Positions 1 through 56,355 of a stretch of DNA of 64,000 bases are shown here, in pieces. Origin of the DNA: Octopus vulgaris (taxonomy: Eukaryota); contig OX597819.1 in NCBI GenBank assembly GCA_951406725.2, forward strand, positions 107,570,001-107,634,000, written 5' to 3'. The notes under the pieces are model-generated. The model saw only the letters and a program-made list of their open reading frames with translations, searched no databases and was not told the origin of the DNA. A program made the translations under genes and the position numbers. Position 1 is the stretch's first letter; every line of letters starts with the position of its first letter.

Positions 1-1779
1 TAGGTGTTTATAAAATTCCGTGTCCATAAGGACCACAGCACTCCCTTTGTCCGCTTCTTTGATGGTGAGGTTTTTATCCAGTTGTATGTCACGTAGGTTT
101 TCCCATTCTTCCTTACTGAAATTGGATTTTACCTTGGTTTTGCTTGGGGTAAAGGGAGACTCTGGATGTGTTTACAGAAATCGTCCAGTGTTTTATTTCT
201 CCCTTTTGGTGGTAGGAAGTTGCTTTTATTTCTGATCAATGAGTCGTCCCCATTGTTGATATCTGTCAAAGCTTCTGTTAGGCGAAGTTTTCTGCAGAAT
301 TCAGAAACGTCATCCAAACAAGACCCACCAAAAACCTGGTTTTCCAATCACTCTAACACCCCTCCCCCACCGATTAGAACCTTCAAGAACCTCCCATACA
401 CTAGAAATTATCCCCCCTCAAGGCTCCCCTCCCTCACACTAATAACAAACAAGGCATCCTACCCACACCGATACATATAAGACCCACCCAACGAACCCCC
501 TATAGTCCACCCATCCAACAACCACATTCCTACCACATCTCCTACAGATCTCCAAACCCTCACATCCCACACGAACCCAATCACCACAACTACATACCCC
601 CCTACATCCCCCCATACAATCTACCAGACACACACCCACAAACCCATCGCATTTCTCACAAATCCTTACACCATCGCATCCCATACCAACACAAATACGA
701 CAACTACCTACCCCCTCCAACCTCCCCACCCAAAAACACTCCTACACATACAACCAGAACTTTAACAAAGAATACACCCCTTACCTCAACAACCATTTTT
801 TAGACAGAGGGGAAAAATACAAACACCACCGCTAACACAGACCCAAAATAAGAAAACATCTTGCTAGGATGTTGATTTGGGTTGGTGTCAGTGTTTTGCT
901 GGAGAGGTTTATAATTTTTGTTTTCTTATTTTGGGTCTGTGTTAGCGGTGGTGTTTGTATTTTTCCCCTCTGTCTAAAAAATGGTTGTTGAGGTAAGGGG
1001 TGTATTCTTTGTTAAAGTTCTGGTTGTATGTGTAGGAGTGTTTTTGGGTGGGGAGGTTGGAGGGGGGTAGGTAGTTGTCGTATTTGTGTTGGTATGGGAT
1101 GCGATGGTGTAAGGATTTGTGAGAAATGCGATGGGTTTGTGGGTGTGTGTCTGGTAGATTGTATGGGGGGATGTAGGGGGGTATGTAGTTGTGGTGATTG
1201 GGTTCGTGTGGGATGTGAGGGTTTGGAGATCTGTAGGAGATGTGGTAGGAATGTGGTTGTTGGATGGGTGGACTATAGGGGGTTCGTTGGGTGGGTCTTA
1301 TATGTATCGGTGTGGGTAGGATGCCTTGTTTGTTATTAGTGTGAGGGAGGGGAGCCTTGAGGGGGGATAATTTCTAGTGTATGGGAGGTTCTTGAAGGTT
1401 CTAATCGGTGGGGGAGGGGTGTTAGAGTGATTGGAAAACCAGGTTTTGTGGTGGGTCTTGTTTGGATGACGTTTCTGAATTCTGCAGAAAACTTCGCCTA
1501 ACAGAAGCTTTGACAGATATCAACAATGGGGACGACTCATTGATCAGAAATAAAAGCAACTTCCTACCACCAAAAGGGAGAAATAAAACACTGGACGATT
1601 TCTGTAAACACATCCAGAGTCTCCCCTTTACCCCAAGCAAAACCAAGGTAAAATCCAATTTCAGTAAGGAAGAATGGGAAAACCTACGTGACATACAACT
1701 GGATAAAAACCTCACCATCAAAGAAGCGGACAAAGAGAGTGCTGTGGTCCTTATGGACACGGAATTTTATAAACACCTA
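1..1779. repeat. Large inverted repeat (fold-back): 1-858 is the reverse complement of 919-1779, with a ~60-bp spacer; the left arm runs off the window
   Basis: Base 1 onward (taggtgtttataaaattccg) is the reverse complement of 1779 backward; 841-858 acccaaaataagaaaaca pairs with 919-936. The arms differ by a few homopolymer indels and one substitution (DKG vs DKE). Confidence 0.95.
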
Positions 1780-3608
1780 GTGTTCTCCATGCTTAACAAT
1801 AACATTTTCTATGAGGTTATTAACAACTACAAACAGCAAAAAACAATCAGAAACCTCACCACACTCATACGCCAACACGGTCAGGGACTCACAGAAAAAG
1901 AAAGGGATTATATCACCATTTTCAAATGCAAGCCCAGCCTTTTTTATGGCCTTCCTAAAATCCATAAAAACAAATACATCACCGAAGCCTGCAAACTCTC
2001 CACTGACATCCACATCAACATCAAAGCACCGGAGGACCTAAAACTAAGGCCCATCGTGGCTGGTACCTCCTGTGAAACACACCGCCTGAGTAACTTCCTA
2101 GACATCCTTTTGAAACCTTTCCTTACCCACATCAAAAGTTTCATTAGGGATGATCTGGACATGCTCAAACACCTCCCGAAAACAGTTAACGAGGAGGCAC
2201 TCCTGGTATCCTTTGATGTCATCAACCTCTACACCAACATTCCACATGAGTATGGTATAGAGGCAATTGACTTCTGGCTAGAAAAACACCCAGAGACATT
2301 CCCTGACCGCATTAACAAGTCTTTTATTACAGAATCTCTTAAGTTCATTCTGACAAACAATTTTTTTCTTTCGACGACACACACTACCGTCAAAAATGTG
2401 GCATTGCGATGGGTACCAAGGCTGCACCAGTCCTTGCGAACCTCATAATGGGTTACTTCGAACTGTCACTCTATGAAATATCAAGCCAGAAATTTGGACA
2501 TGTTTTCCACACCTACCTAATGGAAAACTGGAAAAGGTATTTAGATGATTGTTTCATCATATGGAAAGAACCTTATGAAAAACTCCTGGAATTCAAAACC
2601 ATACTAAACAACATACATCCCAACATCCAATTCACTATGGAATTAAGTAAACATCATCTCCCATTCCTTGATCTCCTAATTATAAAAACACCTAAGAACC
2701 AAATCATAACAGACATCTACCACAAACCTACAGACTCACAACAATACCTCCTCTTTAGTTCATGCCACCCAAAACACACCAAGACAAATATCCCTTTCAA
2801 TTTAGCTAAAAGGGTATGCACCATTGTCTCGGATCCAAAAACACGAGAAATACGCCTTCAAGACCTCAAAAAAACACTATTACAACGTCAATATCCCTCC
2901 ACCCTTATAGAGTATGGAATAAAACGCGCCAAAGAACTAGACAACACTACACTGATAACCACCCAACCTAACACCACACACAACCTCAAAATACTTCCAT
3001 ACATTTCCACCCACAACCCCAAAAATATCGAAGCATACACCACAATCATACAAAACCTCAGTCTACTGTCAACAGACCCAAAAATGAAAAACATTATAAA
3101 TACACACAAAATCCTCAAATGCAAAAGGCAACACAAATCTTTAAAAAAACTCTTGACAAATGCCAAACTTCACACACCACATCCACCCCCAACAGTAAAA
3201 AAATGTGCACGCTCAAACTGTGGTACCTGCCCCTTTCTACTTGAAGGCTCTGAATTTACCTTCAAACAAGGTACGAAGTTTAAAATCAAGACTAACTTCT
3301 CCTGTTCCTCCGAGAACCTTATCTACGTTCTCACATGCGCTGGTTGCCAACATAATTATGTGGGACAAACGAGTCTCCCGTTACGTAAACGAGTAACGGT
3401 GCATAAAGAACAAATAAATCTCCCGGAATACCGACAAATTCCACTGAGTGACCACTTAGACTCATGTGCTAAAGACTTAAACCCCAAATTCTATATATTC
3501 CCCTTCTACCAATGTAAAGACGGGATCACCACACAGGAGAGAATTAACAAGGAGAATCTCTTTATTGAAAAATTCCAAACACAACTTAATATGCAAACTC
3601 CTCGTTGA
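1462..3608 (+). pseudogene. PLE reverse transcriptase + GIY-YIG endonuclease, split by a 1-nt frameshift at ~2361-2372
   Basis: Motifs FYGLPKIHK, LRPIVAG, SFDVINLYTNIP, AMGTKAAP, KRYLDDCF, LPFLD, linker CARSNCGTC, and NLIYVLTCAGCQHNYVGQT...H...HL...E...LN. One extra T in the T-run restores NNFFLFDDTHYRQKCGIAMGTK, so this may be a sequencing error. Confidence 0.9.
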
Positions 3609-4243
3609 TCAAACTTCCTTTCTCTACCTCACTCTTCATGGATGGACTAACACAAATATATAAAGATACCATGCATTCACCACTTCAAGCTAAAACTTAT
3701 ATTCTTTAAATATCATTTTCACTATTGTTGTTGTTACTACTATCATTTTTATTATAAATGATATGACAATTTGAAATGCAATTGTCTATGCAGTTTTATA
3801 TTATTAGAAAATAATATAAATAAAGTGTTAAAATCTGAAAGTTAAGTTAACAAGCAATTATATAAAAAAGATAATGCAAATGAAGCTAAAATGATAGTTT
3901 TATAATTTGGGTTTTATTGAAGAACTCAAAAGAGTTGTCTCCCCTTACTCACAACACAGGAACTGAAGAACCAGGACCACAATTACTACTACTTCCTGTC
4001 CTGCAACATGCTGAATTTAACAACACAACACATCACATGCTCTTAATCCCTTTGGATCTTAACACCTCAAGGTAATTTTTTGGTAAACAACCATAAAACT
4101 CAAGATACACAACGAACTCACAATGTATCGGAGAACTTATTTTTTAATTTTTGTACATTTTCATCATTATTCTTTTACAAAAAACATTGCAAGTTTCTTT
4201 TTTTCCCCTTTCTAATTTTTAAAAAAACTTCTTAAAACATAAA

Positions 4244-4284
4244 TATTCTTGACAAGTCATACATTGACGAAAACCGGTTGAATA
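4244..4284 (+). ncRNA. Type I hammerhead-like motif with U3:A8 core variant
   Basis: tattc-TTGACAA-gtca tacat tgac-GAAA-accgg-TT-gaata; helices I and II pair, and the stem III region is palindromic (aaccggtt). Confidence 0.65.
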
Positions 4285-4371
4285 AATATATATATTTATA
4301 TATTTTATCATTTTCTCATTTTATTAAAATTTTCTTTCATTTGAGCATTCTGCATTTTTAAAAAAAATTTT

Positions 4372-11769: not shown

Positions 11770-12136
11770 GCTTTTGTTTTTGTTTGTTGCTTGTTAATAT
11801 CTCTTTTTAAGGATATCAGTTTAATCATTTAGCTGAAATCAGTCGAGTGTGGAGCTAAATTAAGATGTATAGGGAAATTAAGATGTACAGGGATTCATGA
11901 CTTGTACTTAAAATGTCAGGTTCATTTACCAAAATGAACGAATACTAATTTTTCGGATTTATTTATATATACGAGTGTATACACACACACACACACAAAT
12001 ACATACATAAGGATGCGCATAGATATACATTCACATATAAGTTCTATGCACGTATAGATATATACACATGTATATATATATATACAGGGTCAAGATACAG
12101 GACTCTTGACCTGTCCAACAAAGCGTGATGCCTAAA

Positions 12137-12278
12137 CCAATCAGCTCAACCAACCAATCAGCTTAAGTAATTGAGTGATACTACACACTGATTGGTCAGA
12201 ATACAGTTTGCAAAACCTAGCACTCTGGAGCCTACCCAGCTGTATTTATAGCACAGAATCACTCATCTTGCTACAGTC
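12137..12278 (+). promoter_or_regulatory. Putative Pol II promoter in the pLTR
   Basis: CCAAT at 12137 and 12154, inverted ATTGG at 12191, TATTTATA at 12243-12250 and an Inr-like tacagtc ~30 nt later; upstream of the HHR and the ORF. Confidence 0.45.
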
Positions 12279-12313
12279 AAAAATTGTGAAGCATGACTGT
12301 CAACACTACTACA

Positions 12314-12358
12314 TGAACCCGAAGATTGCAGAATTCAATGCATGAAAGTACTAGTTCA
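12314..12358 (+). ncRNA. Minimal type I hammerhead ribozyme, U4C core variant
   Basis: tgaac-CCGAAGA-ttgca gaattcaa tgcat-GAAA-gtac-TA-gttca; 5-bp helix I and palindromic GTAC stem III. Confidence 0.75.
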
Positions 12359-12563
12359 ATCAGAATGAATATTTAACATTCTACTATTTCATTTTATTTT
12401 ATTCAATTATAATATATTATCTTATAATATATCATTATAAGATTGTAAATAAAACGTGAAAATCAGACAAGGTTGGAATTCTTTTTATTAATATATTCTT
12501 CTATACACAATCACACACACCCATATATATATATATCTATATTCCTATTGTGTATATGCCAAC

Positions 12564-15500
12564 ATGTCTGGAAAGCAACAAACAAAATTAACAGAATCCG
12601 AAAGAATTCTAATGGAAATTTCATCGAAATTATCAACACTCATCACGATGATTGACACACAATCCTCTATTTTAAAGGAAATAGAAAAACAGTCTACAGA
12701 CGGAAAACTTGGAAATGAACACATAAACTCTGAAATTAAGAATTTAGCTGAAATGATACCAACAATTATAAAATCTACAAGAGAAAGCCTACCACAACCT
12801 CCTTGGATGTCAGAAATAAACGAAAGAAATCTGGAAAAAGAGGCACACCGAAAAAGAGAAGAGATACAGAAGACATGGAAAAAACTCCTTAACATAAGAA
12901 AACAGAACTTCTGGAAGGCATATAAATGCGAAAAATATGCTGAAATACATTCGAAATGGATATCTTTAGCGGCACCCGTACTTCCTCGGAAGTACCTAAT
13001 TAAAGAAATTGCAGGAGAACCAGAGGAAGAAACTAAACTTCGATGGGACCTTAGTTTGATAAAATTCAGGACCGACATCTCCATTACCCTGTCTAAACAA
13101 TCCCGCTACAAAGCCAAATACGAAGCTATCGATGATCAAATCAGAGATGAAATATCCAAACTAACGACCGGCAATATAGCAGAAAAAATGCGAGAACTAT
13201 GGATCAGAGATATCTCAAAAGAAGAAAGCAGATCAAGAAAGTTTTGGCAGCGGAAACAATTATTTCTCGACAAATATGCTACAAATTACGGTAAAGACAC
13301 CAGAACTCCGAGAAATAGCATTAAAAGTGGACAACCTCACCAACGCAACATACACCAGAACACGTGGCAACATGAACACCCGTTTCACCACGAATCGAAG
13401 ACGAACTACGGTAAGAACTCTTCCCATTTTGTATGCAAACACCCTAATGCACACAACATGAACAAAAAGCACAAACAAAATAGATATTGTTTTGAACAGA
13501 CCATTAGCAGTAGAAATAACAGGAGATCATTTTCAAGACCTCAACAGAGATTACCCACAAGAAACTGGACAAAAAACCGATCTAGATCTAGAAGTAAACC
13601 CAGATCATTTCTCCAGGTGGTTAAAAACAATGCTAACAAGAAATTGAAAAGTAGCATACATAATACCAAAAACAAGACAGAAAACATAACGAAACCAAGT
13701 AAAGTACCACAACCAAAACGCAAAATTCATCAAGCAAACATCAACAGGAATATAAATCATAACCAGAAAAAAAATCCATTTTTTTACGTCAGGACAACAA
13801 ACACCGGAGAAAGAAAAAATCCAAGAGGAAACATACCCCAAACAACTGAACGTATAGATCCTAAAATAATTAATTTATCAAAAAGAGATCTTGACAATGA
13901 TGAAATCCAACTTCTGTCAAAAGGACTGAAATTCACACCTACACCAACAGCCAACCACCAAGAATTAAAGGAGGATATCCAAAAATTCTGTCGAAAATTA
14001 CGACTTGTAGAATTCTTCGCTAACAAAAGTAATGAGATTGATGAATCCCTAGTAAGGAATAAATCAAATTTCACCCCACCAAAAGGAAGAAATAGCTACC
14101 TTGACCAATACATTGATATCCTGTCTAAATTTCCCCTTAGACGCAATACCAATGTTAGGCCAAACATTAGCAAATCAGAGATGTCTGCATGTAAACGTAT
14201 ACAAAACGATCAAACAATAATAATTAAACAAGCAGATAAAGGTGGTGCAATTGTTATTATGGATACCGAATACTATAAGGATTTGGTTGAAGACCAACTG
14301 AAGGATACAACCTTCTATTGTGAAATACCCGCAAATATAGACCACCACATCATGAAAAAGATCAACAACCTGATTTCAACACACCACAACTCACTTACGG
14401 ATAATGAAAAAGACTACATCACCAATTTTGAACCAAAACCCAGCAACTTCTACGGCTTACCAAAAATACACAAATCAAAAAACATTCAACAGGCAGTAAA
14501 AGAACAAGAAAGTGAGTACATAAAATTATTACATCCAAAAGACCTAAAACTTAGACCTATTATAGCTGGTCCAGCATGCCCTACACACCGTCTAAGCAAT
14601 TTTATTGACATTGTTTTGAAACCACTATGTACTTACATACCAAGTTTCATCAGGGATGACATCGACTTCCTGTCCCATCTTCCCAAAACAACAGAAACAA
14701 ATTCAGTTTTACTAAGTTTTGATGTGGTAAGCCTCTACACCAATATTCCACACGATTTAGGAATAAAGGCGATTAAATACTGGTTAGAAAAACATAGAGA
14801 AGTGATTCCCAGCAGATTCACAGTGCCATTTATATTAGACACAGTCAAACTTATTCTAGAAAATAACACATTCTTCTTCAATGGAAAGAATTACATCCAA
14901 ATTAGAGGCACGGCGATGGGAACGAGGTTTGCTCCCGTTTACGCCAACTCTGTAATGGGATACTTAGAAGAACAACTCTACCAAGAGGTGGAGGTAAACT
15001 ATGGCACTGGATTTAGAAAGTATATTGAAAAGGCATGGAAGAGATACCTAGACGACTGTTTCATAATCTGGACAGAATCTCTAAATACTCTGGAAGAGTT
15101 CAATATCCTCCTGAACAACCTACACCCATCTCTCAAATTTACAAAGGAGATGAGTAGTACCAAATTACCATTCCTGGATATAATGGTAATTAAAAAAGAC
15201 ACCACCATCACCACAGATATATACTATAAACACACAGACACACATCAATACCTAAATTTTAAGTCGTGCCATCCACCACATACAAAACGTAACATCCCAT
15301 ACTGCCTAGCCAGAAGAATTTGTACTATTGTAGAAGATGCAAATATCAGGAACAAACGCCTAATAGAACTAAGAGAATTTTTGCTCAAACAAAAATACCC
15401 ATCTCTACTTATAGAAAATAGCATACAGCGGGCTATAAAAATACCTATACAACAACTTAGGACAACCCAAGGAAGAGGAAAACAAGAACAAGTCATACCA

Positions 15501-16091
15501 TTCATAGTGACACACAACCCATGTCACCAGAATATCTTCAACATTGCCAAAGCAAACCTACCAATCATTGCCCAAAGTAATGAATTAAAAGACATAATCA
15601 AGGATCGAGCTATGGTGCTTAGTAAAAGACAGCCTAAAAACTTGAAAACATTACTAACAAAGGCAAAATTTGACCTCAGCAACAAAGACCAAACATTCAC
15701 GGTATCTAAATGCAATGATAGCCGATGTGGCACATGCCAATTCATACATACCGGTCAATATATAAACACAAAAACCGGGAAAATATTCACAAACGCGAAT
15801 ATGAACTGCAAAAGCAGAAATTTAATTTACTGCATCAAATGCCCAAATTGTGAAGAAATATATGTAGGTCAGACGGGAAACGCACTATTAGAACGCTCAC
15901 GTGTACACCGGCAACAGATTAGAGACCCAGAGGTCCGTCAGATACCTTTGAGTAACCACCTAGCAACATGTGGTCGGAAAATATATATAATATTTCCATT
16001 CTACAAATTACACAGCCCAAGTGAAATCGAGAGGAAAATCAGAGAAAAGAATTTTATTGATAAATTCGAACCCAAGCTAAATAAGCAATAA
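12564..16091 (+). CDS. PLE polyprotein: ~400-aa coiled-coil/basic N-terminal region, reverse transcriptase, CxxxxCxxC linker, GIY-YIG endonuclease with CCHH
   Basis: Motifs IINLS...LLSKGLKFTP, KQADKGGAIVIMD, FYGLPKIHK, SFDVVSLYTNIP, GTAMGTRFAPVYAN, KRYLDDCF, LPFLDI, CNDSRCGTC, NLIYCIKCPNCEEIYVGQTG, H...HL and REKNFI...LN. Confidence 0.95.
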   Translation: MSGKQQTKLTESERILMEISSKLSTLITMIDTQSSILKEIEKQSTDGKLGNEHINSEIKNLAEMIPTIIKSTRESLPQPPWMSEINERNLEKEAHRKREEIQKTWKKLLNIRKQNFWKAYKCEKYAEIHSKWISLAAPVLPRKYLIKEIAGEPEEETKLRWDLSLIKFRTDISITLSKQSRYKAKYEAIDDQIRDEISKLTTGNIAEKMRELWIRDISKEESRSRKFWQRKQLFLDKYATNYGKDTRTPRNSIKSGQPHQRNIHQNTWQHEHPFHHESKTNYGKNSSHFVCKHPNAHNMNKKHKQNRYCFEQTISSRNNRRSFSRPQQRLPTRNWTKNRSRSRSKPRSFLQVVKNNANKKLKSSIHNTKNKTENITKPSKVPQPKRKIHQANINRNINHNQKKNPFFYVRTTNTGERKNPRGNIPQTTERIDPKIINLSKRDLDNDEIQLLSKGLKFTPTPTANHQELKEDIQKFCRKLRLVEFFANKSNEIDESLVRNKSNFTPPKGRNSYLDQYIDILSKFPLRRNTNVRPNISKSEMSACKRIQNDQTIIIKQADKGGAIVIMDTEYYKDLVEDQLKDTTFYCEIPANIDHHIMKKINNLISTHHNSLTDNEKDYITNFEPKPSNFYGLPKIHKSKNIQQAVKEQESEYIKLLHPKDLKLRPIIAGPACPTHRLSNFIDIVLKPLCTYIPSFIRDDIDFLSHLPKTTETNSVLLSFDVVSLYTNIPHDLGIKAIKYWLEKHREVIPSRFTVPFILDTVKLILENNTFFFNGKNYIQIRGTAMGTRFAPVYANSVMGYLEEQLYQEVEVNYGTGFRKYIEKAWKRYLDDCFIIWTESLNTLEEFNILLNNLHPSLKFTKEMSSTKLPFLDIMVIKKDTTITTDIYYKHTDTHQYLNFKSCHPPHTKRNIPYCLARRICTIVEDANIRNKRLIELREFLLKQKYPSLLIENSIQRAIKIPIQQLRTTQGRGKQEQVIPFIVTHNPCHQNIFNIAKANLPIIAQSNELKDIIKDRAMVLSKRQPKNLKTLLTKAKFDLSNKDQTFTVSKCNDSRCGTCQFIHTGQYINTKTGKIFTNANMNCKSRNLIYCIKCPNCEEIYVGQTGNALLERSRVHRQQIRDPEVRQIPLSNHLATCGRKIYIIFPFYKLHSPSEIERKIREKNFIDKFEPKLNKQ

Positions 16092-16356
16092 TAATAATAC
16101 TTAGAGGTATTACTTCCACTGCTACGACCATGACCACTAACAACAACAACAATACTAAAGGTGATCAAGACGAAGATAGCAGGAAAATTATCTTGTTTAG
16201 GGTTAAAAGTTCTATTGCCACCACCATCACCACTAGCAACAATAATTAAGGTGCTGACAATGATGATGATGACAATTGAAATATAAAAATATAAAAATCT
16301 CTGACAAAGGATATTTACAACATTTCTAAAAATAACCCAACAATTGCTGCTTCGGC

Positions 16357-16809
16357 CAGGGTCAAGATACAGGACTCTTGACCTGTCCAACAAAGCGTGA
16401 TGCCTAAACCAATCAGCTCAACCAACCAATCAGCTTAAGTAATTGAGTGATACTACACACTGATTGGTCAGAATACAGTTTGCAAAACCTAGCACTCTGG
16501 AGCCTACCCAGCTGTATTTATAGCACAGAATCACTCATCTTGCTACAGTCAAAAATTGTGAAGCATGACTGTCAACACTACTACATGAACCCGAAGATTG
16601 CAGAATTCAATGCATGAAAGTACTAGTTCAATCAGAATGAATATTTAACATTCTACTATTTCATTTTATTTTATTCAATTATAATATATTATCTTATAAT
16701 ATATCATTATAAGATTGTAAATAAAACGTGAAAATCAGACAAGGTTGGAATTCTTTTTATTAATATATTCTTCTATACACAATCACACACACCCATATAT
16801 ATATATATC

Positions 16810-16814
<5 letters not shown>
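16357..16814 (+). repeat. 3' pseudo-LTR of PLE 2
   Basis: Direct repeat of 12085-12542; runs into a TA-rich microsatellite. Confidence 0.95.
16586..16630 (+). ncRNA. Minimal type I hammerhead ribozyme (copy in the 3' pLTR)
   Basis: Identical to 12314-12358. Confidence 0.75.
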
Positions 16815-20691: not shown

Positions 20692-20693
<2 letters not shown>

Positions 20694-21323: not shown

Positions 21324-21857
<534 letters not shown>

Positions 21858-33620: not shown

Positions 33621-35055
33621 TGACAGTCAATCACTCTGAAATGTTCGTATTGTAGCTTCCGGCGTGAATGTACGTACATGCATACATACATACATATATA
33701 TTTATAAATCATTAAGCACATAAGCACACACGCATATATATATATGCGTGTGTGTGTGAAATTACACACCATGCATATACATGCATATATATGTGTGTTT
33801 GGGTGAGCATTATATATATATATATATATATAATTATGTAAGTATGTATAGACAAACAGACAAACAGAGACACAGACATACACAGACGCACAGACAGACA
33901 GACAGACAGACTGACAGGCAGGCTGGCAGGCAGCCAGGTAGGGTGGTAGGTAGGTAGGTAGGTAGGTAGGTAGGTAGGTAGGTAGGTAGGTAGTCACATG
34001 AGTGTGTGTATAATTTTGAAATGCGTAGAAGTTTCGAATGGCAATTATTAAGTAGCAACGAAAGGAAGGAAACATATTTCGCGTTAAGATTGATGAAGAG
34101 AATTTACTCCACATCCATAAGTATTTCCTGTATTCCTTATTTTGGCAAGTTAGGTTTGGAAATCTGCATAGTAGAGCCTACCTTGAATTCCAGGCATGGA
34201 CAAATAGAAAAAAACACAAGTATATAATTTCAAGTAATTTGCTAGAGTAGCGCAGTTTATTTTCTGAAACATCAATCTGACATTTCCGCGTGAGGAAATG
34301 TCACTAAGAAGGAATAATAGCATGTATAAGATAAATTACCATATACAACAAATTGTTACTTACCTATTGATTTTAATATCAGATTTCACCAAACCAATTT
34401 ATAACTTGTTAAACCTGTACTTGTGTCGACCGCATCAATTACATAGCCACAGGTACATTTGTACTTTGCATTAAATACTGTCACTGTCAGCATGAGATCT
34501 TGACGAATTTTTTTTTATCATTGGTTTGTTTGTTCTACCAAAATCGACACAGGGCCATGCAATAAAAAGTATAGCCACGAATACTGACGACTATGATATA
34601 CACGAGTTTAGAGGGAAACTTTAGGCAGTTGTTTTACCTTCCACATTTAGCATTAAACCCTTGTCAAATCATATCTCTCCGTTTTAAAAAGACTGGGGTG
34701 CACTGGATAATGTAGTCCGGGGTATTATTACGCCGCAAATCAAGGATAAAAACAATGATGCATATGGTTGCAACGCTTTATATCTGATATGGCTTGGATC
34801 TAGACTACAACAACAATACACACTCTATATTAAATTTTATTTTTATATCTAATCAGGAGAGAAGGAGGCTACTAAGGCCTTTTACCTGTCTCCTGAAATT
34901 GGTGGGAGGAAATGGCAAAACTGACCCGAATGCTTGCAAAATATTGGATTCCACGAAAGCAAGTCAAGGTATCAAGTGGTAATGTTAAATCAGGCGCAGG
35001 ATAATATTTAAATATATCCAAGTCTTCTATATGGAAGCATAATATAAATATATAT

Positions 35056-35467
35056 TTCGTTTTTGCCCACAAGGGGCTAAACATAGAGGGGACAAACAAA
35101 GACAGACAAAGTGATTAAGTCGATTAGATCGACCCTAGTGCGTAACTGGTACTATATTTATTGACCTCGAAAGGATGAAAGGCAAAGTCGACCTCGGCGG
35201 AATTTGAACTCAGAAAGTAACGGCAGACTAAATACCTATTTCTTTACTACCCACTAGGGGCTAAACACAGAGGGGACAAACAAGGCCAGACAAACGGATT
35301 AAGTCGACTACATCGATCTCCAGTGCGTAACTGGTACTGAGTTTATCGACCCCGAAAGGATGAAAGGTAAAGTCGACCCGGCGGAATTTGAACTCAGAAC
35401 GTAACGACAGACAAAATACCGCTCAGCTTTTCGCTCAGCGCGCTAACGTTTCTGCCAGCTCGCCGCC
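35056..35467 (-). mobile_element. Two tandem family C SINE copies (the left copy lacks the head)
   Basis: The body ggggctaaaca...gaaaggatgaaagg...gaatttgaactcaga appears twice. Confidence 0.8.
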
Positions 35468-37029: not shown

Positions 37030-37195
37030 CATATATACTTCAGGGTAGTTCTTTCAGTTTCCGTCTGCCAAATCCACTCACTTTGGCCCGAGGCTATGGT
37101 AGAAGACGCTTACACAAGATGCCACGCAGTGGGACTGAACCCGGAACCATGTGGTTCGTAAGCAAGCTACTTACCACACAGCCACTGGTACGCCT
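36754..37195 (-). mobile_element. Family A SINE with an expanded internal (TA)n
   Basis: Matches 10155-10571. Confidence 0.8.
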
Positions 37196-37233
37196 ATAAA
37201 AATGATTTTCATTCAAAGAAATCAAAGAACAAG

Positions 37234-37305
37234 TTCCCATGCCGAGAATCGAACCCGGGCCGCCTGGGTGAAAGCTAGGGATCCTATCCACTAGTCCACA
37301 TGGGA
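37234..37305 (-). tRNA. tRNA-Glu(TTC) gene or pseudogene
   Basis: TCCCATGTGGACTAGTGGATAGGATCCCTAGCTTTCACCCAGGCGGCCCGGGTTCGATTCTCGGCATGGGAA: 72 nt, perfect acceptor stem, TTC anticodon, but an A-C mismatch in the anticodon stem. Confidence 0.7.
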
Positions 37306-37313
37306 TATGTATG

Positions 37314-37386
<73 letters not shown>

Positions 37387-38061
37387 ATGTATATATATAT
37401 ATATATATATATTTCAACAATTGAGGGTAAAATTAATTAATTATTAATTAATTTCACCAAGTATTCAGTATGTAAAGGGACCATTTAAGGCAAATCCAAT
37501 TCAAATTATTACATTATATAAAAGGGCTTAGTAAAATAAATTACTTTTGCCACATACTGAACTCATTAGAAATAGTAGCTAAAAAAACTTTTTAAAAATA
37601 CTTTTTGTAAAACTATTTCTAATACTTAAAGAAAATCTCTCTCATATAGTGTTTGCTCAATTCAACTCAGACGGTTTGCGTGAATATATATATATATATA
37701 TATATACGTCTGTATATGTATGTATGGCGTTTACGCGCATCCTTTTGTGTATGTTGATATATATATGTGGATTTTAATATAAATATGTATTGCAGTATTT
37801 ATAACAGGTTTAATTTCTATGCATTAATTTGTACTGTCTTCATTAACGGCAACAGGTTTTTTCCTCGGTATTTTCCTCGGATTTTATAATTTTTATAAGT
37901 TTTTATATATATATACATATATTTTTGACCTTTTTGTTTATCGCTCGAAGATTGACCGTTTTTTTCTAAAGGGCCAATCAAACAAGTCCATTTCTTTTTA
38001 AAGGTGTAGCGTTTGTAAGAGTATAGATTGAATTAATATATATGTTCCATTCTAGCAAAAA

Positions 38062-38099
38062 CTGTCTGATGAACGGCAACGAGAAACTCAGAGTAACAG
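38062..38099 (+). ncRNA. Type I hammerhead ribozyme, canonical core
   Basis: ctgt-CTGATGA-acg gcaa cga-GAAA-ctc a gag-TA-acag; GUA cleavage triplet; lies in a module (37671-38133) ending in (TA)n. Confidence 0.85.
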
Positions 38100-38357
38100 A
38101 TTTTGTTGATTTTTCTGCTGCTTAAAATAAAGTATATATATATATATATATATATACATATATACTTCAGGGTTCTTTCAGTTTCCGTCTGCCAAATCCA
38201 CTCACTTTGACCCGAGGCTATGGTAGAAGACGCTTACACAAGATGCCACGCAGTGGGACTGAACCCGGAACCATGTGGTTCGTAAGCAAGCTACTTACCA
38301 CACAGCCACTGGTACGCCTATAAAAATGATTTTCATTCAAAGAAATCAAAGAACAAG

Positions 38358-38429
38358 TTCCCATGCCGAGAATCGAACCCGGGCCGCCTGGGTGAAAGCT
38401 AGGGATCCTATCCACTAGTCCACATGGGA
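38358..38429 (-). tRNA. tRNA-Glu(TTC) gene or pseudogene, duplicate copy
   Basis: Identical to 37234-37305. Confidence 0.7.
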
Positions 38430-38437
38430 TATGTATG

Positions 38438-38532
<95 letters not shown>

Positions 38533-38830
38533 ATATTTCAACAATTGAGGGTAAAATTAATTAATTATTAATTAATTTCACCAAGTATTCAGTATGTAAA
38601 GGGACCATTTAAGGCGAATTCAAATTATTACATTATATAAAAGGGCTTAGTAAAATAAATTACTTTGCCACATACTGAACTCATTAGAAATAGTAGCTAA
38701 AAAAACTTTTAAAACTTTTTTAAAACTATTTCTAATACTTAAAGAAAATCTCTCTCATATAGTGTTTGCTCAATTCAACTCACGAAAGTATGGGGGTAAA
38801 GACATTAAAAAATCAAATGCAAAGGTTATT

Positions 38831-38882
38831 TGAGAACGTACGTTTCAAGATTAGTCAACTCGACATTTCTATCATCAGCTCA
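38831..38882 (-). ncRNA. Type I hammerhead ribozyme, canonical core
   Basis: Minus strand tgag-CTGATGA-taga aat gtc gagtt gac taa tctt-GAAA-cgtacg-TT-ctca; palindromic CGTACG stem III. Confidence 0.85.
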
Positions 38883-39389
38883 GAACTCCTTGGTTTGGAT
38901 TTGAAAACACTGAAAGCGGGAGCATACCCTTTCGGCTTCTTATCGCTTCTGAAGATCTGCTCGAAACTAACAGTGCCAGCAAACCCAAAATATGCAAGCG
39001 AAGAATTTCTGCTCTCCCCTTTCCACCAGCGTGGGTTAAAATCAGTAAACACTATGCTTTTTCGGTAAAATCCGAAGCATTAAATAGAGAGAGATGAATT
39101 ATAATTTCAACAATTGAGGGTAAAATTAATTAATTATTAATCAATTTCACCAAGTATTCAGTATGTAAAGGGACCATTTAAGGCGAATTCAAATTATTAC
39201 ATTATATAAAAGGGCTTAGTAAAATAAATTACTTTGCCACATACTGAACTCATTAGAAATAGTAGCTAAAAAACTTTTTTAAAACTATTTCTAATACTTA
39301 AAGAAAATCTCTCTCATATAGTGTTTGCTCAATTCAACTCACGAAAGTATGGGGGTAAAGACATTAAAAAATCAAATGCAAAGGTTATT

Positions 39390-39441
39390 TGAGAACGTAC
39401 GTTTCAAGATTAGTCAACTCGACATTTCTATCATCAGCTCA
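39390..39441 (-). ncRNA. Type I hammerhead ribozyme (second tandem unit)
   Basis: Identical to 38831-38882, 559 nt away. Confidence 0.85.
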
Positions 39442-39633
39442 GAACTCCTTGGTTTGGATTTGAAAACACTGAAAGCGGGAGCATACCCTTTCGGCTTCTT
39501 ATCGCTTCTGAAGATCTGCTCGAAACTAACAGTGCCAGCAAACCCAAAATATGCAAGCGAGGAATTTCTGCTCTCCCCTTTCCCCTTTCCATATATATAT
39601 ATATACATATATATATATACATATATATACATA

Positions 39634-40247
<614 letters not shown>

Positions 40248-40304
40248 AAGTATGTATGGGCATATGAATATATACATATAATTGAAAAGATGGAATCAAG
40301 AAGG

Positions 40305-40537
40305 AGTACGGCTGGAGATTTATTTTCAATCACTACAATTGTTTCTACGCAATGTAGTTCTCAAGACGTGCAGGTGCTTGAATATGCAACATCTGGGTGT
40401 GTTTCCTCAAGCGAGACCTGAGGAAGCACAAGTGGATCTCAATACAGGGAAACGGTTGCACAATCAAGTAACTGCATGCCAGAAAAACGTTGCGTAGAAA
40501 CAATTGTAGTGATTGAAATTATATGTCCAGCCGTACT
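40305..40537. repeat. Small inverted-repeat element whose arms carry HHR 3' halves
   Basis: agtacggctgga...ttcaatcactacaattgtttctacgcaa pairs with ttgcgtaGAAAcaattgTAgtgattgaa...tccagccgtact. Confidence 0.7.
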
Positions 40538-40748
40538 ATTTGTTGTTGACTCTAGTTTTTTCGATTATCTATTCACACAAACCTGAAAGTACGTATATTA
40601 GTAACAACTGGATAGCAGAGGGTGAAATCTGGAGATGGACGAGCTTTATACTCTACTCTACTACATTCTTAACAAAATATACCATAAATATATACACAAA
40701 CACACACACACTTATATATACACGCGCACTCACACGCACACACGCATG

Positions 40749-51466: not shown

Positions 51467-51525
51467 TGCCGCTGAAGAGGGGAAAATTTCTTAGGAATTA
51501 ACCCCGAAATTGGACCAATACGGTA
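51467..51525 (+). ncRNA. Type I hammerhead ribozyme, canonical core
   Basis: tgccg-CTGAAGA-gggg aa aatttc ttag gaatt aa cccc-GAAA-ttgg a ccaa-TA-cggta; the module ends in (TA)n at ~51653. Confidence 0.88.
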
Positions 51526-55859: not shown

Positions 55860-56355
55860 AGTTAACACTATTAATCATAGATAGAATTACCTTAAAACTA
55901 CATGAAATAGGTTTGTGGATAGAAAAGTCAGGATCAGCTGGACAAGTTCCAATCCTGTGCAGGGATTTCATCAAAGAACGATTGTTCTTTTTTCACTGAA
56001 GGCGGAAACACTGTTCATAGAACTATTATTATCAAGAGCTTTGATAAATTGGACAGGATGATTTATATATCAATCTATCCGATGTACATGAAATAGGTGT
56101 GTGGACAGAAAAGACAGGATCAGCTGAACAAGTTCCAAACCTGTTCTGGGATTTCATCAAGGGCAATCATTCGTTTTCACTGAACTCAGAAACACTGTTT
56201 ATAAAACTATTATTATCAAGAGCTTAAATAAATTGGACAGCATAATTTATAAATCCTTCTGTCTTATCAACATGAAATAGGCCTGTGTACGGAAAAGACA
56301 GGATCAGCTGGACAAGATCCAATCTTGTGTTAGGATCTCATCAAAGAACTATCGT
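55860..56355. repeat. Diverged tandem repeat, ~186-bp unit, about 2.6 copies
   Basis: acatgaaatagg...caggatcagctg...tcatcaa recurs at ~55900, ~56086 and ~56270. Confidence 0.85.

What the first reader, a model, noticed from the sequence alone, without database searches (positions are those of the whole stretch)
38535..39590. Retrozyme-like tandem predicted to release a 559-nt self-cleaved, possibly circular, RNA
Seen: a non-coding head-to-tail repeat, near-identical between units, each with a canonical CUGAUGA/GAAA hammerhead on the minus strand. The cleavage sites are 559 nt apart, (TA)n lies at both ends, and a third truncated end lies at 37411-37670. The palindromic CGUACG stem III allows the two HHRs to pair as a dimer. 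Established: metazoan non-LTR retrozymes are HHR tandems that yield circRNAs and are thought to be mobilised by PLEs. Inference: a cephalopod-type retrozyme with a relatively long monomer, copied by rolling reverse transcription and parasitising the local PLEs.
Basis: partly seen in the sequence, partly recalled or inferred. Interest (0 to 1): 0.8.

Follow-up and report, generated by a model that had tools for sequence, protein, structure and literature searches.

The report
Hammerhead-bearing tandem repeat, retrozyme-like
A 560-base non-coding repeat with a self-cutting RNA motif in each of its two copies looks like a new member of the known "retrozyme" parasites of Penelope-type jumping genes, but whether it really cuts itself and forms a circular RNA is untested.

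Summary
Two head-to-tail copies (569 and 487 nt; 2 substitutions, one 10-nt indel) lie between (TA)n tracts. Each carries a type I hammerhead on the minus strand, with cleavage sites 559 nt apart. Corrections: the ribozyme is not fully canonical (4-bp stem I, U·U at the base of stem II, GUU triplet), and the "third end" is part of a 630-bp local duplication without a ribozyme.

It is one copy of a large family. 4621 and 3044 contigs of two public runs guessed to be DNA align, and both runs hold the head-to-tail joint. The monomer is non-coding, 33% GC and strongly self-paired (z −6.5 to −8.1; four Penelope-type termini in the window +0.8 to −1.9).

Best reading: a non-autonomous, Penelope-mobilised, non-LTR retrozyme-type element. 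Cleavage, expression, circularity, the partner element and a cephalopod host were not shown. The class is published, with monomers up to 972 bp. The scan held no look-alike of this sequence but noted similar element types in other genomes. New member of a known kind; modest interest.

The parts
38535..39103 (-). Unit 1: complete 569-nt repeat unit, the downstream copy in transcript sense; its 3' end abuts (TA)n
39104..39590 (-). Unit 2: 5'-truncated upstream copy (480 nt matching unit 1, plus a 7-nt duplication at the truncation point)
38831..38882 (-). Type I hammerhead 1: stem I 4 bp (extendable over 38822-38891), core CUGAUGA/GAAA, long stem II opening with U·U, stem III 2 bp with palindromic GUAC loop; predicted cut after U17 at 38835
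39390..39441 (-). Type I hammerhead 2, identical; predicted cut after U17 at 39394
38835..39393 (-). Predicted cut-to-cut monomer, 559 nt, 33.5% GC; circular MFE -149.1 kcal/mol, 63% paired
39025..39103 (-). 79-nt stretch present once; pairs with the region downstream of the hammerhead (helices such as 39095-39087 with 38748-38756 and 39055-39047 with 38759-38767), so it belongs to the monomer's rod
   Evidence: duplex -33.4 vs -20.1 +/- 3.7 kcal/mol, 1 of 500 mononucleotide shuffles as low
38429..38536 (.). (TA)n tract at the element's 3' end (insertion target)
39591..39765 (.). (TA)n tract at the element's 5' end
37038..37669 (.). Local duplicate of 38165-38782: repeat fragment + tRNA-Glu + TA tract + the 3'-most 259 nt of the unit, without a ribozyme; not a third unit of the array

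Best explanation
This is one inserted copy of a high-copy, non-autonomous retroelement family of the non-LTR retrozyme type, moved by the reverse transcriptase and GIY-YIG endonuclease of a Penelope-like element (PLE). Steps: (1, inferred) read-through transcription of a tandem copy on the minus strand; (2, predicted) the two hammerheads pair their palindromic stem III as a double hammerhead and cut slowly after GUU, releasing a 559-569-nt monomer; (3, inferred) the monomer, a long rod with three AU-rich hairpins and the ribozyme on a branch, is ligated to a circle; (4, inferred) a PLE enzyme nicks a (TA)n tract, primes at the AU-rich unit boundary 300 nt downstream of the cut site and copies more than once round, here 1.86 turns, leaving a 5'-truncated partial tandem. 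Shown: the anatomy, the ribozyme motifs, the family and its recurring joint, the lack of coding. Steps 2-4 are not shown. I put about 0.85 on 'non-autonomous PLE-type tandem family' and about 0.55 on a circular RNA really being made.
For: Two complete type I motifs in consecutive units, which meets the working definition of an active non-LTR retrozyme in bioRxiv 10.64898/2026.07.22.740005. Family: 4621 and 3044 contigs laid in runs X2 and X3 (two studies, two organism labels). 9 of the 10 rows of table 5c join 39102/39103 back to 38535-38540 (2 in X2, 7 in X3), so the head-to-tail joint is not a one-locus accident. Non-coding: 0 of 5 frames tested reach a Pfam cut-off; best tblastn E 0.08 with the window's PLE proteins. 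Self-pairing: z -6.5 (40 shuffles) and -8.1 (30 shuffles), against +0.8 to -1.9 for 4 PLE-type termini and +2.4 to -2.8 for 6 background stretches. The single-copy 79 nt pairs with the rest of the unit. Family variants tend to spare the helices: 8 of 40 break a pair in the ribozyme-constrained fold against 14.6-15.0 expected (P 0.006-0.007), and at two pairs both sides vary towards a new Watson-Crick pair (P 0.08). In the core only N7 varies, and a variant at 38871 would turn the U·U into A-U. The insert crosses both cut sites and neither end lies at one, so the template was a circle or an uncut multimer. Both units share the window's letter at 13 of 14 polymorphic sites checked, including one where 96-100% of the depth has another letter, as expected for one template. 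PLE marks: 5' truncation, partial tandem, (TA)n target (PMC8557442 section 6), the same layout as the intact coding PLE at 12087-16812.
Against: No expression, cleavage or circle was observed. The ribozyme has the proportions of the weak PLE type (short stem I, long stem II, no G10.1-C11.1; PMC4209133 reports low in vitro activity for these) and a GUU triplet (slower than GUC or GUA; recalled, not from a call). The active fold is not the computed minimum: +4.6 kcal/mol in the circle and +9.7 for the double hammerhead in the two-unit transcript, where the palindrome can form an inactive duplex that buries GAAA. In the 2026 preprint only 1 of 9 predicted retrozymes cleaved in vitro. The variant test is weak and not strand-specific: P 0.09 on the unconstrained fold (11 of 40 break), P 0.05 outside the ribozyme (8 of 35), and the plus-strand fold is spared just as well (6 of 40, P 0.0005). 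The frequencies of the two 'compensatory' pairs do not match well (for example 8% and 40% in X2) and phase is unknown. An invariant core is expected by chance at 0.43. The exact joint is not among the 5 rows of table 5; only variant forms are listed. Depth falls over 39048-39103 to 8-23% (X2) and 23-68% (X3) of the median, and 6 contigs in X3 run into other sequence near 39059, so other 5' contexts exist. No partner PLE was found.
Confidence: 0.6

Rival explanations
1. A non-autonomous PLE derivative that travels as uncut linear multimeric transcripts. The hammerhead is an inherited, weak or idle pLTR motif, no monomer circle accumulates, and tandems arise from tandem donors or template jumps.
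For: PLE-type ribozyme proportions, and the active fold is not the minimum. Low activity reported for PLE hammerheads; 8 of 9 predicted retrozymes did not cleave. Insert ends do not coincide with the cut site. The self-pairing signal is also strong on the plus strand (z -5.5).
Against: The rod ties the far 5' 79 nt to the region behind the ribozyme, and PLE termini in the same window show no such folding. The axolotl HHR_Amex2, with U·U in stem II and a 2-bp stem III, cleaves as a dimer and yields circles (PMC7229834).
Confidence: 0.27
2. The two copies are simply the pseudo-LTRs of a coding PLE whose body was deleted at this locus; the family is the terminal repeat of an autonomous element.
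For: Same layout as the coding PLE at 12087-16812 (454-nt identical pLTRs, hammerhead, TA flanks). Lower depth over the far 5' part and an alternative continuation near 39059. 231 of 255 loose ends were not displayed.
Against: The short joint recurs in 9 variant forms in two other runs. The 79-nt middle shows no coding trace and is structurally matched to the unit. None of the 24 loose ends shown is recognisably an ORF (read by eye).
Confidence: 0.09
3. A local DNA-level tandem duplication, or an assembly artefact, of a single dispersed repeat.
For: The neighbourhood does hold a recent 630-bp local duplication, and the units are near-identical.
Against: The joint is present in contigs of two runs from two different studies, at depths 29-190 per variant; at most one of them can be the source of the window.
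Confidence: 0.04

Closest known systems
Metazoan non-LTR retrozymes (Cervera and de la Pena 2020, PMC7229834; Li, Clavereau and Pollet 2026, bioRxiv 10.64898/2026.07.22.740005)
   Same: Non-coding head-to-tail repeat with a type I hammerhead per unit, low GC, strongly self-paired predicted circle, many copies, coexistence with coding PLEs. U·U at the base of stem II with a 2-bp stem III matches the description of axolotl HHR_Amex2.
   Different: Monomer 559-569 nt, against 150-450 bp in the 2020 paper (mussel 350-390), though inside the 51-972 bp of the 2026 preprint. Stem I is short and stem II long, no loop-loop contact was identified, and the triplet is GUU. Cleavage and circles are proven for coral, mussel and axolotl but not here.
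[quoted passage not shown]
   Same: Short helix I, large helix II, small palindromic helix III suited to dimer cleavage; partial tandem with 5' truncation; (TA)n target. The hammerhead of the coding PLE in this window also opens stem II with U·U.
   Different: No ORF between the repeats (79 nt instead of about 3.8 kb). The unit folds as a rod, while the window's pLTRs do not. No DNA similarity to the two coding PLEs in the window.
Plant LTR retrozymes (PMC4918200; seen as a search listing and through other papers' descriptions only)
   Same: Two hammerheads flanking a monomer of similar size (600-1000 nt), predicted circular intermediate.
   Different: Those have type III hammerheads, LTRs, PBS/PPT, GC above 55% and 4-bp target duplications; this has type I motifs, 33% GC and a microsatellite target.

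Membership tests
non-LTR retrozyme | Complete type I hammerhead in at least two consecutive tandem units | tested here: met
   identical motifs at 38878-38835 and 39437-39394
non-LTR retrozyme | Head-to-tail tandem family, many copies (dimers to multimers) | tested here: met
   1.86 units here; joint in 9 variant forms in two other runs; 4621 and 3044 contigs laid. Arrays longer than two units could not be seen in short contigs.
non-LTR retrozyme | No protein coding | tested here: met
non-LTR retrozyme | Low GC (below 45-50%) | tested here: met
   33%
non-LTR retrozyme | Monomer size | tested here: inconclusive
   559-569 nt: above 150-450 bp, within 51-972 bp
non-LTR retrozyme | Canonical hammerhead with loop 1-loop 2 tertiary contacts | tested here: inconclusive
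   Core canonical; stem I 4 bp plus internal loop, stem II opens U·U; no contact identified and no Rfam model matches. Mussel retrozymes also lack most contact nucleotides.
non-LTR retrozyme | Highly self-paired predicted circle | tested here: met
   z -6.5 and -8.1, 63% paired; prediction only
non-LTR retrozyme | Self-cleavage in vitro or in vivo | not testable with these tools
   needs a bench assay; energetics allow it but do not favour it
non-LTR retrozyme | Accumulation as linear and circular monomer RNA | not testable with these tools
   all four runs laid are assembled contigs, which cannot show ends, strand or level of an RNA
autonomous Penelope-like element | RT + GIY-YIG ORF between the pseudo-LTRs | tested here: not met
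   79 nt between the repeats, no coding match
autonomous Penelope-like element | 5'-truncated partial tandem with a hammerhead in each repeat, inserted in (TA)n | tested here: met
   features as described in PMC8557442
autonomous Penelope-like element | Same terminal repeat attached to a coding copy elsewhere in the genome | not testable with these tools
   no genome held; none in this window

The most novel reading that the evidence does not exclude
A transitional form between a Penelope pseudo-LTR and a retrozyme: a PLE-type, GUU-cutting hammerhead embedded in a 560-nt viroid-like rod that is kept by selection on the RNA across a very large family. It would accumulate as an abundant circular RNA in a mollusc group (probably octopods) for which the searches found no report of retrozymes, and so give a direct test of how PLE enzymes prime on (TA)n and roll round a circle.
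Probability: 0.2. Interest if true: 0.55.

Novelty: new member of a known kind. Interest (0 to 1): 0.33.

Why it matters
That PLE enzymes move non-LTR retrozymes through circular RNAs is proposed but not demonstrated (PMC7229834 discussion; the 2026 preprint lists it as open). This copy records the needed geometry: an insert that crosses two cut sites, ends 300 nt away from them in a (TA)n target and is 5'-truncated like a PLE, in a genome with an intact young PLE nearby. It would be a convenient test case, and a further mollusc example with a longer monomer than the mussel's. It does not change the class or reveal a new mechanism by itself.

Tried and rejected
Own-genome search: no genome is held, so array lengths, copy number and linkage to an ORF could not be counted.

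Exact-pattern scans: a 26-nt ribozyme stretch gave 0 hits in metagenome contigs and 0 in viral contigs; a gapped core pattern gave 0 in metagenome contigs.

RNA evidence: no RNA holder listed. None of the 24 runs is on record as RNA. X13 and X10 are guessed RNA and hold the unit (233 and 40 contigs), and X13's depth relative to X2 peaks near the ribozyme (48 against a median of 13 per thousand). Contig depth is no measure of expression, so I use none of this for or against. No place where many molecules begin or end was listed. Summed depth of about a million is not a copy number.

Rfam: only two tRNA matches at gathering level in the window; 14 sub-threshold matches in the region, none a hammerhead.

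Small frames as a PLE remnant: rejected; 2 of 5 had sub-cut-off Pfam matches only.

The tRNA-Glu as a promoter for the unit: rejected; it lies downstream in transcript sense. Target-site duplication: none readable, the ends lie in TA tracts. A promoter scan of 11 bases was uninformative.

Earlier scan notes: 0 look-alikes by sequence, 0 notes in this genome.

Literature for a cephalopod report: 'octopus + Penelope + hammerhead' (4 of 5 papers listed), 'hammerhead ribozyme + octopus' (4 of 5 listed), 'octopus + genome + Penelope + satellite + tandem repeat' (4 of 4) and 'retrozyme/cephalopod/octopus/squid' (15 of 4262 listed, none with the word retrozyme) showed none. 'Octopus' does not occur in the main text of PMC7229834 or PMC7761336. 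The supplement of PMC7229834, which shows further invertebrate examples, could not be read and may bear on this. PMC5785218 (dimer cleavage of PLE hammerheads) is not held.

Full report
THE OBSERVATION. The sequence holds a head-to-tail repeat between two (TA)n tracts (38429-38536 and 39591-39765). Unit 1 is 38535-39103 (569 nt). Unit 2 runs from 39104 to 39583 and ends with a 7-nt duplication at 39590. Over 490 columns the units differ by 2 substitutions and a 10-nt indel. On the minus strand each unit has a type I hammerhead: stem I of 4 bp, CUGAUGA, a 25-nt stem II region, GAAA, CGUACG, UU. The predicted cuts follow 38835 and 39394, 559 nt apart. A relaxed descriptor hit 11 of 1000 shuffles of the unit, and gave 0.57 sites per shuffled window (30 shuffles) against 5 in the real one. 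The motif is real by that test, although no Rfam hammerhead model matches. In transcript sense unit 2 is the upstream, 5'-truncated copy, and 79 nt (39025-39103) occur once. It shares unit 1's minor allele at 38573.

THE RIBOZYME. The core is canonical but the arms are not. PMC4209133 (parts 1 and 2 of 4 read) describes PLE hammerheads as having a short helix I, a large helix II and a small palindromic helix III, with low activity even as dimers. This motif has those proportions and lacks the usual G10.1-C11.1 pair. PMC7229834 (passages and parts 2-3 of 6 read) describes a working axolotl retrozyme, HHR_Amex2, with U·U at the base of helix II and a 2-bp helix III that cleaves well as a dimer, so these features do not exclude activity. 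Computed energies: in the two-unit transcript the double hammerhead is -281.3 kcal/mol, two single hammerheads -275.1, and the unconstrained minimum -291.0, in which the palindrome forms a longer, inactive duplex. In the circular monomer the active fold costs 4.6 kcal/mol and stem I forms with probability about 0.5. These models omit tertiary stabilisation of the core. That GUU is a slower triplet is recalled; one search gave only a listing, which I did not read further.

THE FAMILY. No genome is held. Of 24 runs listed for unit 1, 20 hold it or a part, 17 with half the words or more, from 8 studies and 4 organism labels; one may be the window's source. I laid 4 of the 24. In X2 and X3 (guessed DNA, different studies and labels) 4621 and 3044 contigs aligned at 85% or better, with single contigs at depths from about 21 to 1434, so this is a large polymorphic family; the depth is not a copy number. 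Nine of 10 rows in table 5c join the end of the unit back to its start (2 in X2, 7 in X3, depths 29-190), each with a small letter difference. The exact joint is not among the 5 rows of table 5, possibly because such contigs are too short to call (inference). Depth drops over the far 5' 55 nt (8-23% of the median in X2, 23-68% in X3; the opposite edge bin is 55-71%). That fits 5' truncation or diverged subfamilies, and indel variants cluster there. Six X3 contigs continue into other sequence near 39059. Only 24 of 255 loose ends were shown, so a link to a coding PLE is neither seen nor excluded.

FOLDING. The cut-to-cut monomer folds as a circle at -149.1 kcal/mol with 63% of bases paired, z -6.5 and -8.1. 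The plus strand gives -5.5. Four PLE-type termini from the window give +0.8 to -1.9 and six background stretches +2.4 to -2.8. The fold is a long rod, a side arm, the hammerhead on a branch and three AU-rich hairpins; the 300 nt that hold the hairpins give z -5.8 alone. The single-copy 79 nt pairs with the region behind the ribozyme (-33.4 against -20.1 +/- 3.7; 1 of 500 shuffles), so it is part of the unit rather than a random remnant. This pairing can form in the linear unit as well as in a circle. Of 40 listed variants (2 more were not shown), 11 break a pair in the free fold (14.7 expected, P 0.09) and 8 in the ribozyme-constrained fold (P 0.006-0.007); 3 of the 8 could be rescued by a variant at the partner site. 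Outside the ribozyme 8 of 35 break (P 0.05), and the plus-strand fold is spared too (6 of 40, P 0.0005). So self-complementarity looks conserved, but the test does not say on which strand, or whether at RNA or DNA level, and the constrained fold was chosen after the free one.

CODING AND CONTEXT. Five frames of 58-101 aa within unit 1 gave no Pfam match at cut-off, and tblastn with the window's PLE proteins gave E 0.08 at best. The window holds an intact PLE (12087-16812) and a broken one (1426-3608), both with RT and GIY-YIG. The intact one has the same layout as the finding, with 3.8 kb in place of 79 nt between the repeats, but neither shares DNA similarity with the unit. The intact one's CX4CX2C linker is the kind that PMC8557442 (passages and section 6 read) assigns to Neptune/Nematis elements and suspects of steering insertion to (TA)n. 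Named relatives are oyster, mussel and bivalve-symbiont records (120 of 411 hits listed), which fits a mollusc. That the host is an octopus is my recollection of its repeat landscape and comes from no call.

MECHANISM. The insert is 1056 nt, crosses both cut sites, and its 3' end lies 300 nt downstream of a cut. A monomer cut at both ends could not have been the template; a circle or an uncut multimer could. Both units carry the same letter at 13 of 14 polymorphic sites checked, one of them rare in the family, which fits a single template but also a homogeneous donor dimer. With the rod-like fold and the recurring joint I favour the retrozyme cycle (0.6) over linear copying with an idle ribozyme (0.27), a deleted coding PLE (0.09) and a local artefact (0.04).

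COMPARISON AND NOVELTY. It works like a metazoan non-LTR retrozyme and meets every feature that could be tested clearly; size and tertiary contacts are inconclusive, and cleavage and circles are untestable here. It is not an autonomous PLE. The 2026 preprint (parts 1-3 of 5 read) already argues that such repeats derive from PLE pseudo-LTRs, reports monomers of 51-972 bp, sampled no mollusc, and found cleavage in 1 of 9 elements tested. PMC7761336 and PMC6765202 were seen as passages; PMC4918200 as a listing only. Searches for a cephalopod report showed none, but the supplement of PMC7229834 could not be read. Earlier scan notes (unchecked, other genomes) describe tandem hammerheads that turned out to be PLE ends and ribozyme-free PLE-type tandems; they matched rivals I already held and did not change the reading. 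Verdict: a correct catch, a new member of a known kind, interest 0.33.

Noticed in passing
window 12087-16812 (+): Intact-looking coding Penelope-like element: 1175-aa ORF from ATG 12564 with RT and GIY-YIG and a CX4CX2C linker, 454-nt identical pseudo-LTRs, (TA)n flanks. Each repeat has a hammerhead with the variant core CCGAAGA and a U·U opening of stem II (12319-12353, 16591-16625). Best relatives are 65% identical.
   Followed up: partly
window 1-4340: Second PLE with an inverted 5' copy (1-581 against 1779-1197) and a reading-frame break near 2343-2448. A possible hammerhead with a U3-A8 core and GUU triplet lies near 4250-4285 (read by eye, not found by the descriptor). A 99%-identical piece of its terminal repeat lies at 21419-21703 on the other strand.
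   Followed up: partly
window 37038-37669 and 38165-38782: Local duplication whose one end lies in a TA tract and whose other end is truncated inside the repeat unit, 52 nt short of the cut site. The flank is 99% identical while the element part has 2 substitutions and 11 gap columns. It could be a 3' transduction by retrotransposition, a DNA duplication or an assembly artefact.
   Followed up: partly
window 38066-38095 (+) and 51472-51520 (+): Two further hammerhead-like motifs of unrelated sequence, probably ends of other PLE families; the first sits between the two duplicated blocks.
   Followed up: no
window 37233-37305 and 38357-38429 (-): Two identical tRNA-Glu(TTC) genes or pseudogenes inside the duplication.
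   Followed up: no
window 39777-40086 and 40297-40545: A 139-nt inverted repeat (92%) directly beyond the upstream TA tract, and a self-inverted 250-nt stretch; neither is similar to the unit.
   Followed up: no
window 35045-35420 and 55898-56353: Two different 184-nt tandem repeats (2.0 and 2.5 copies); the first belongs to a dispersed family with copies near 20692 and 61027.
   Followed up: no
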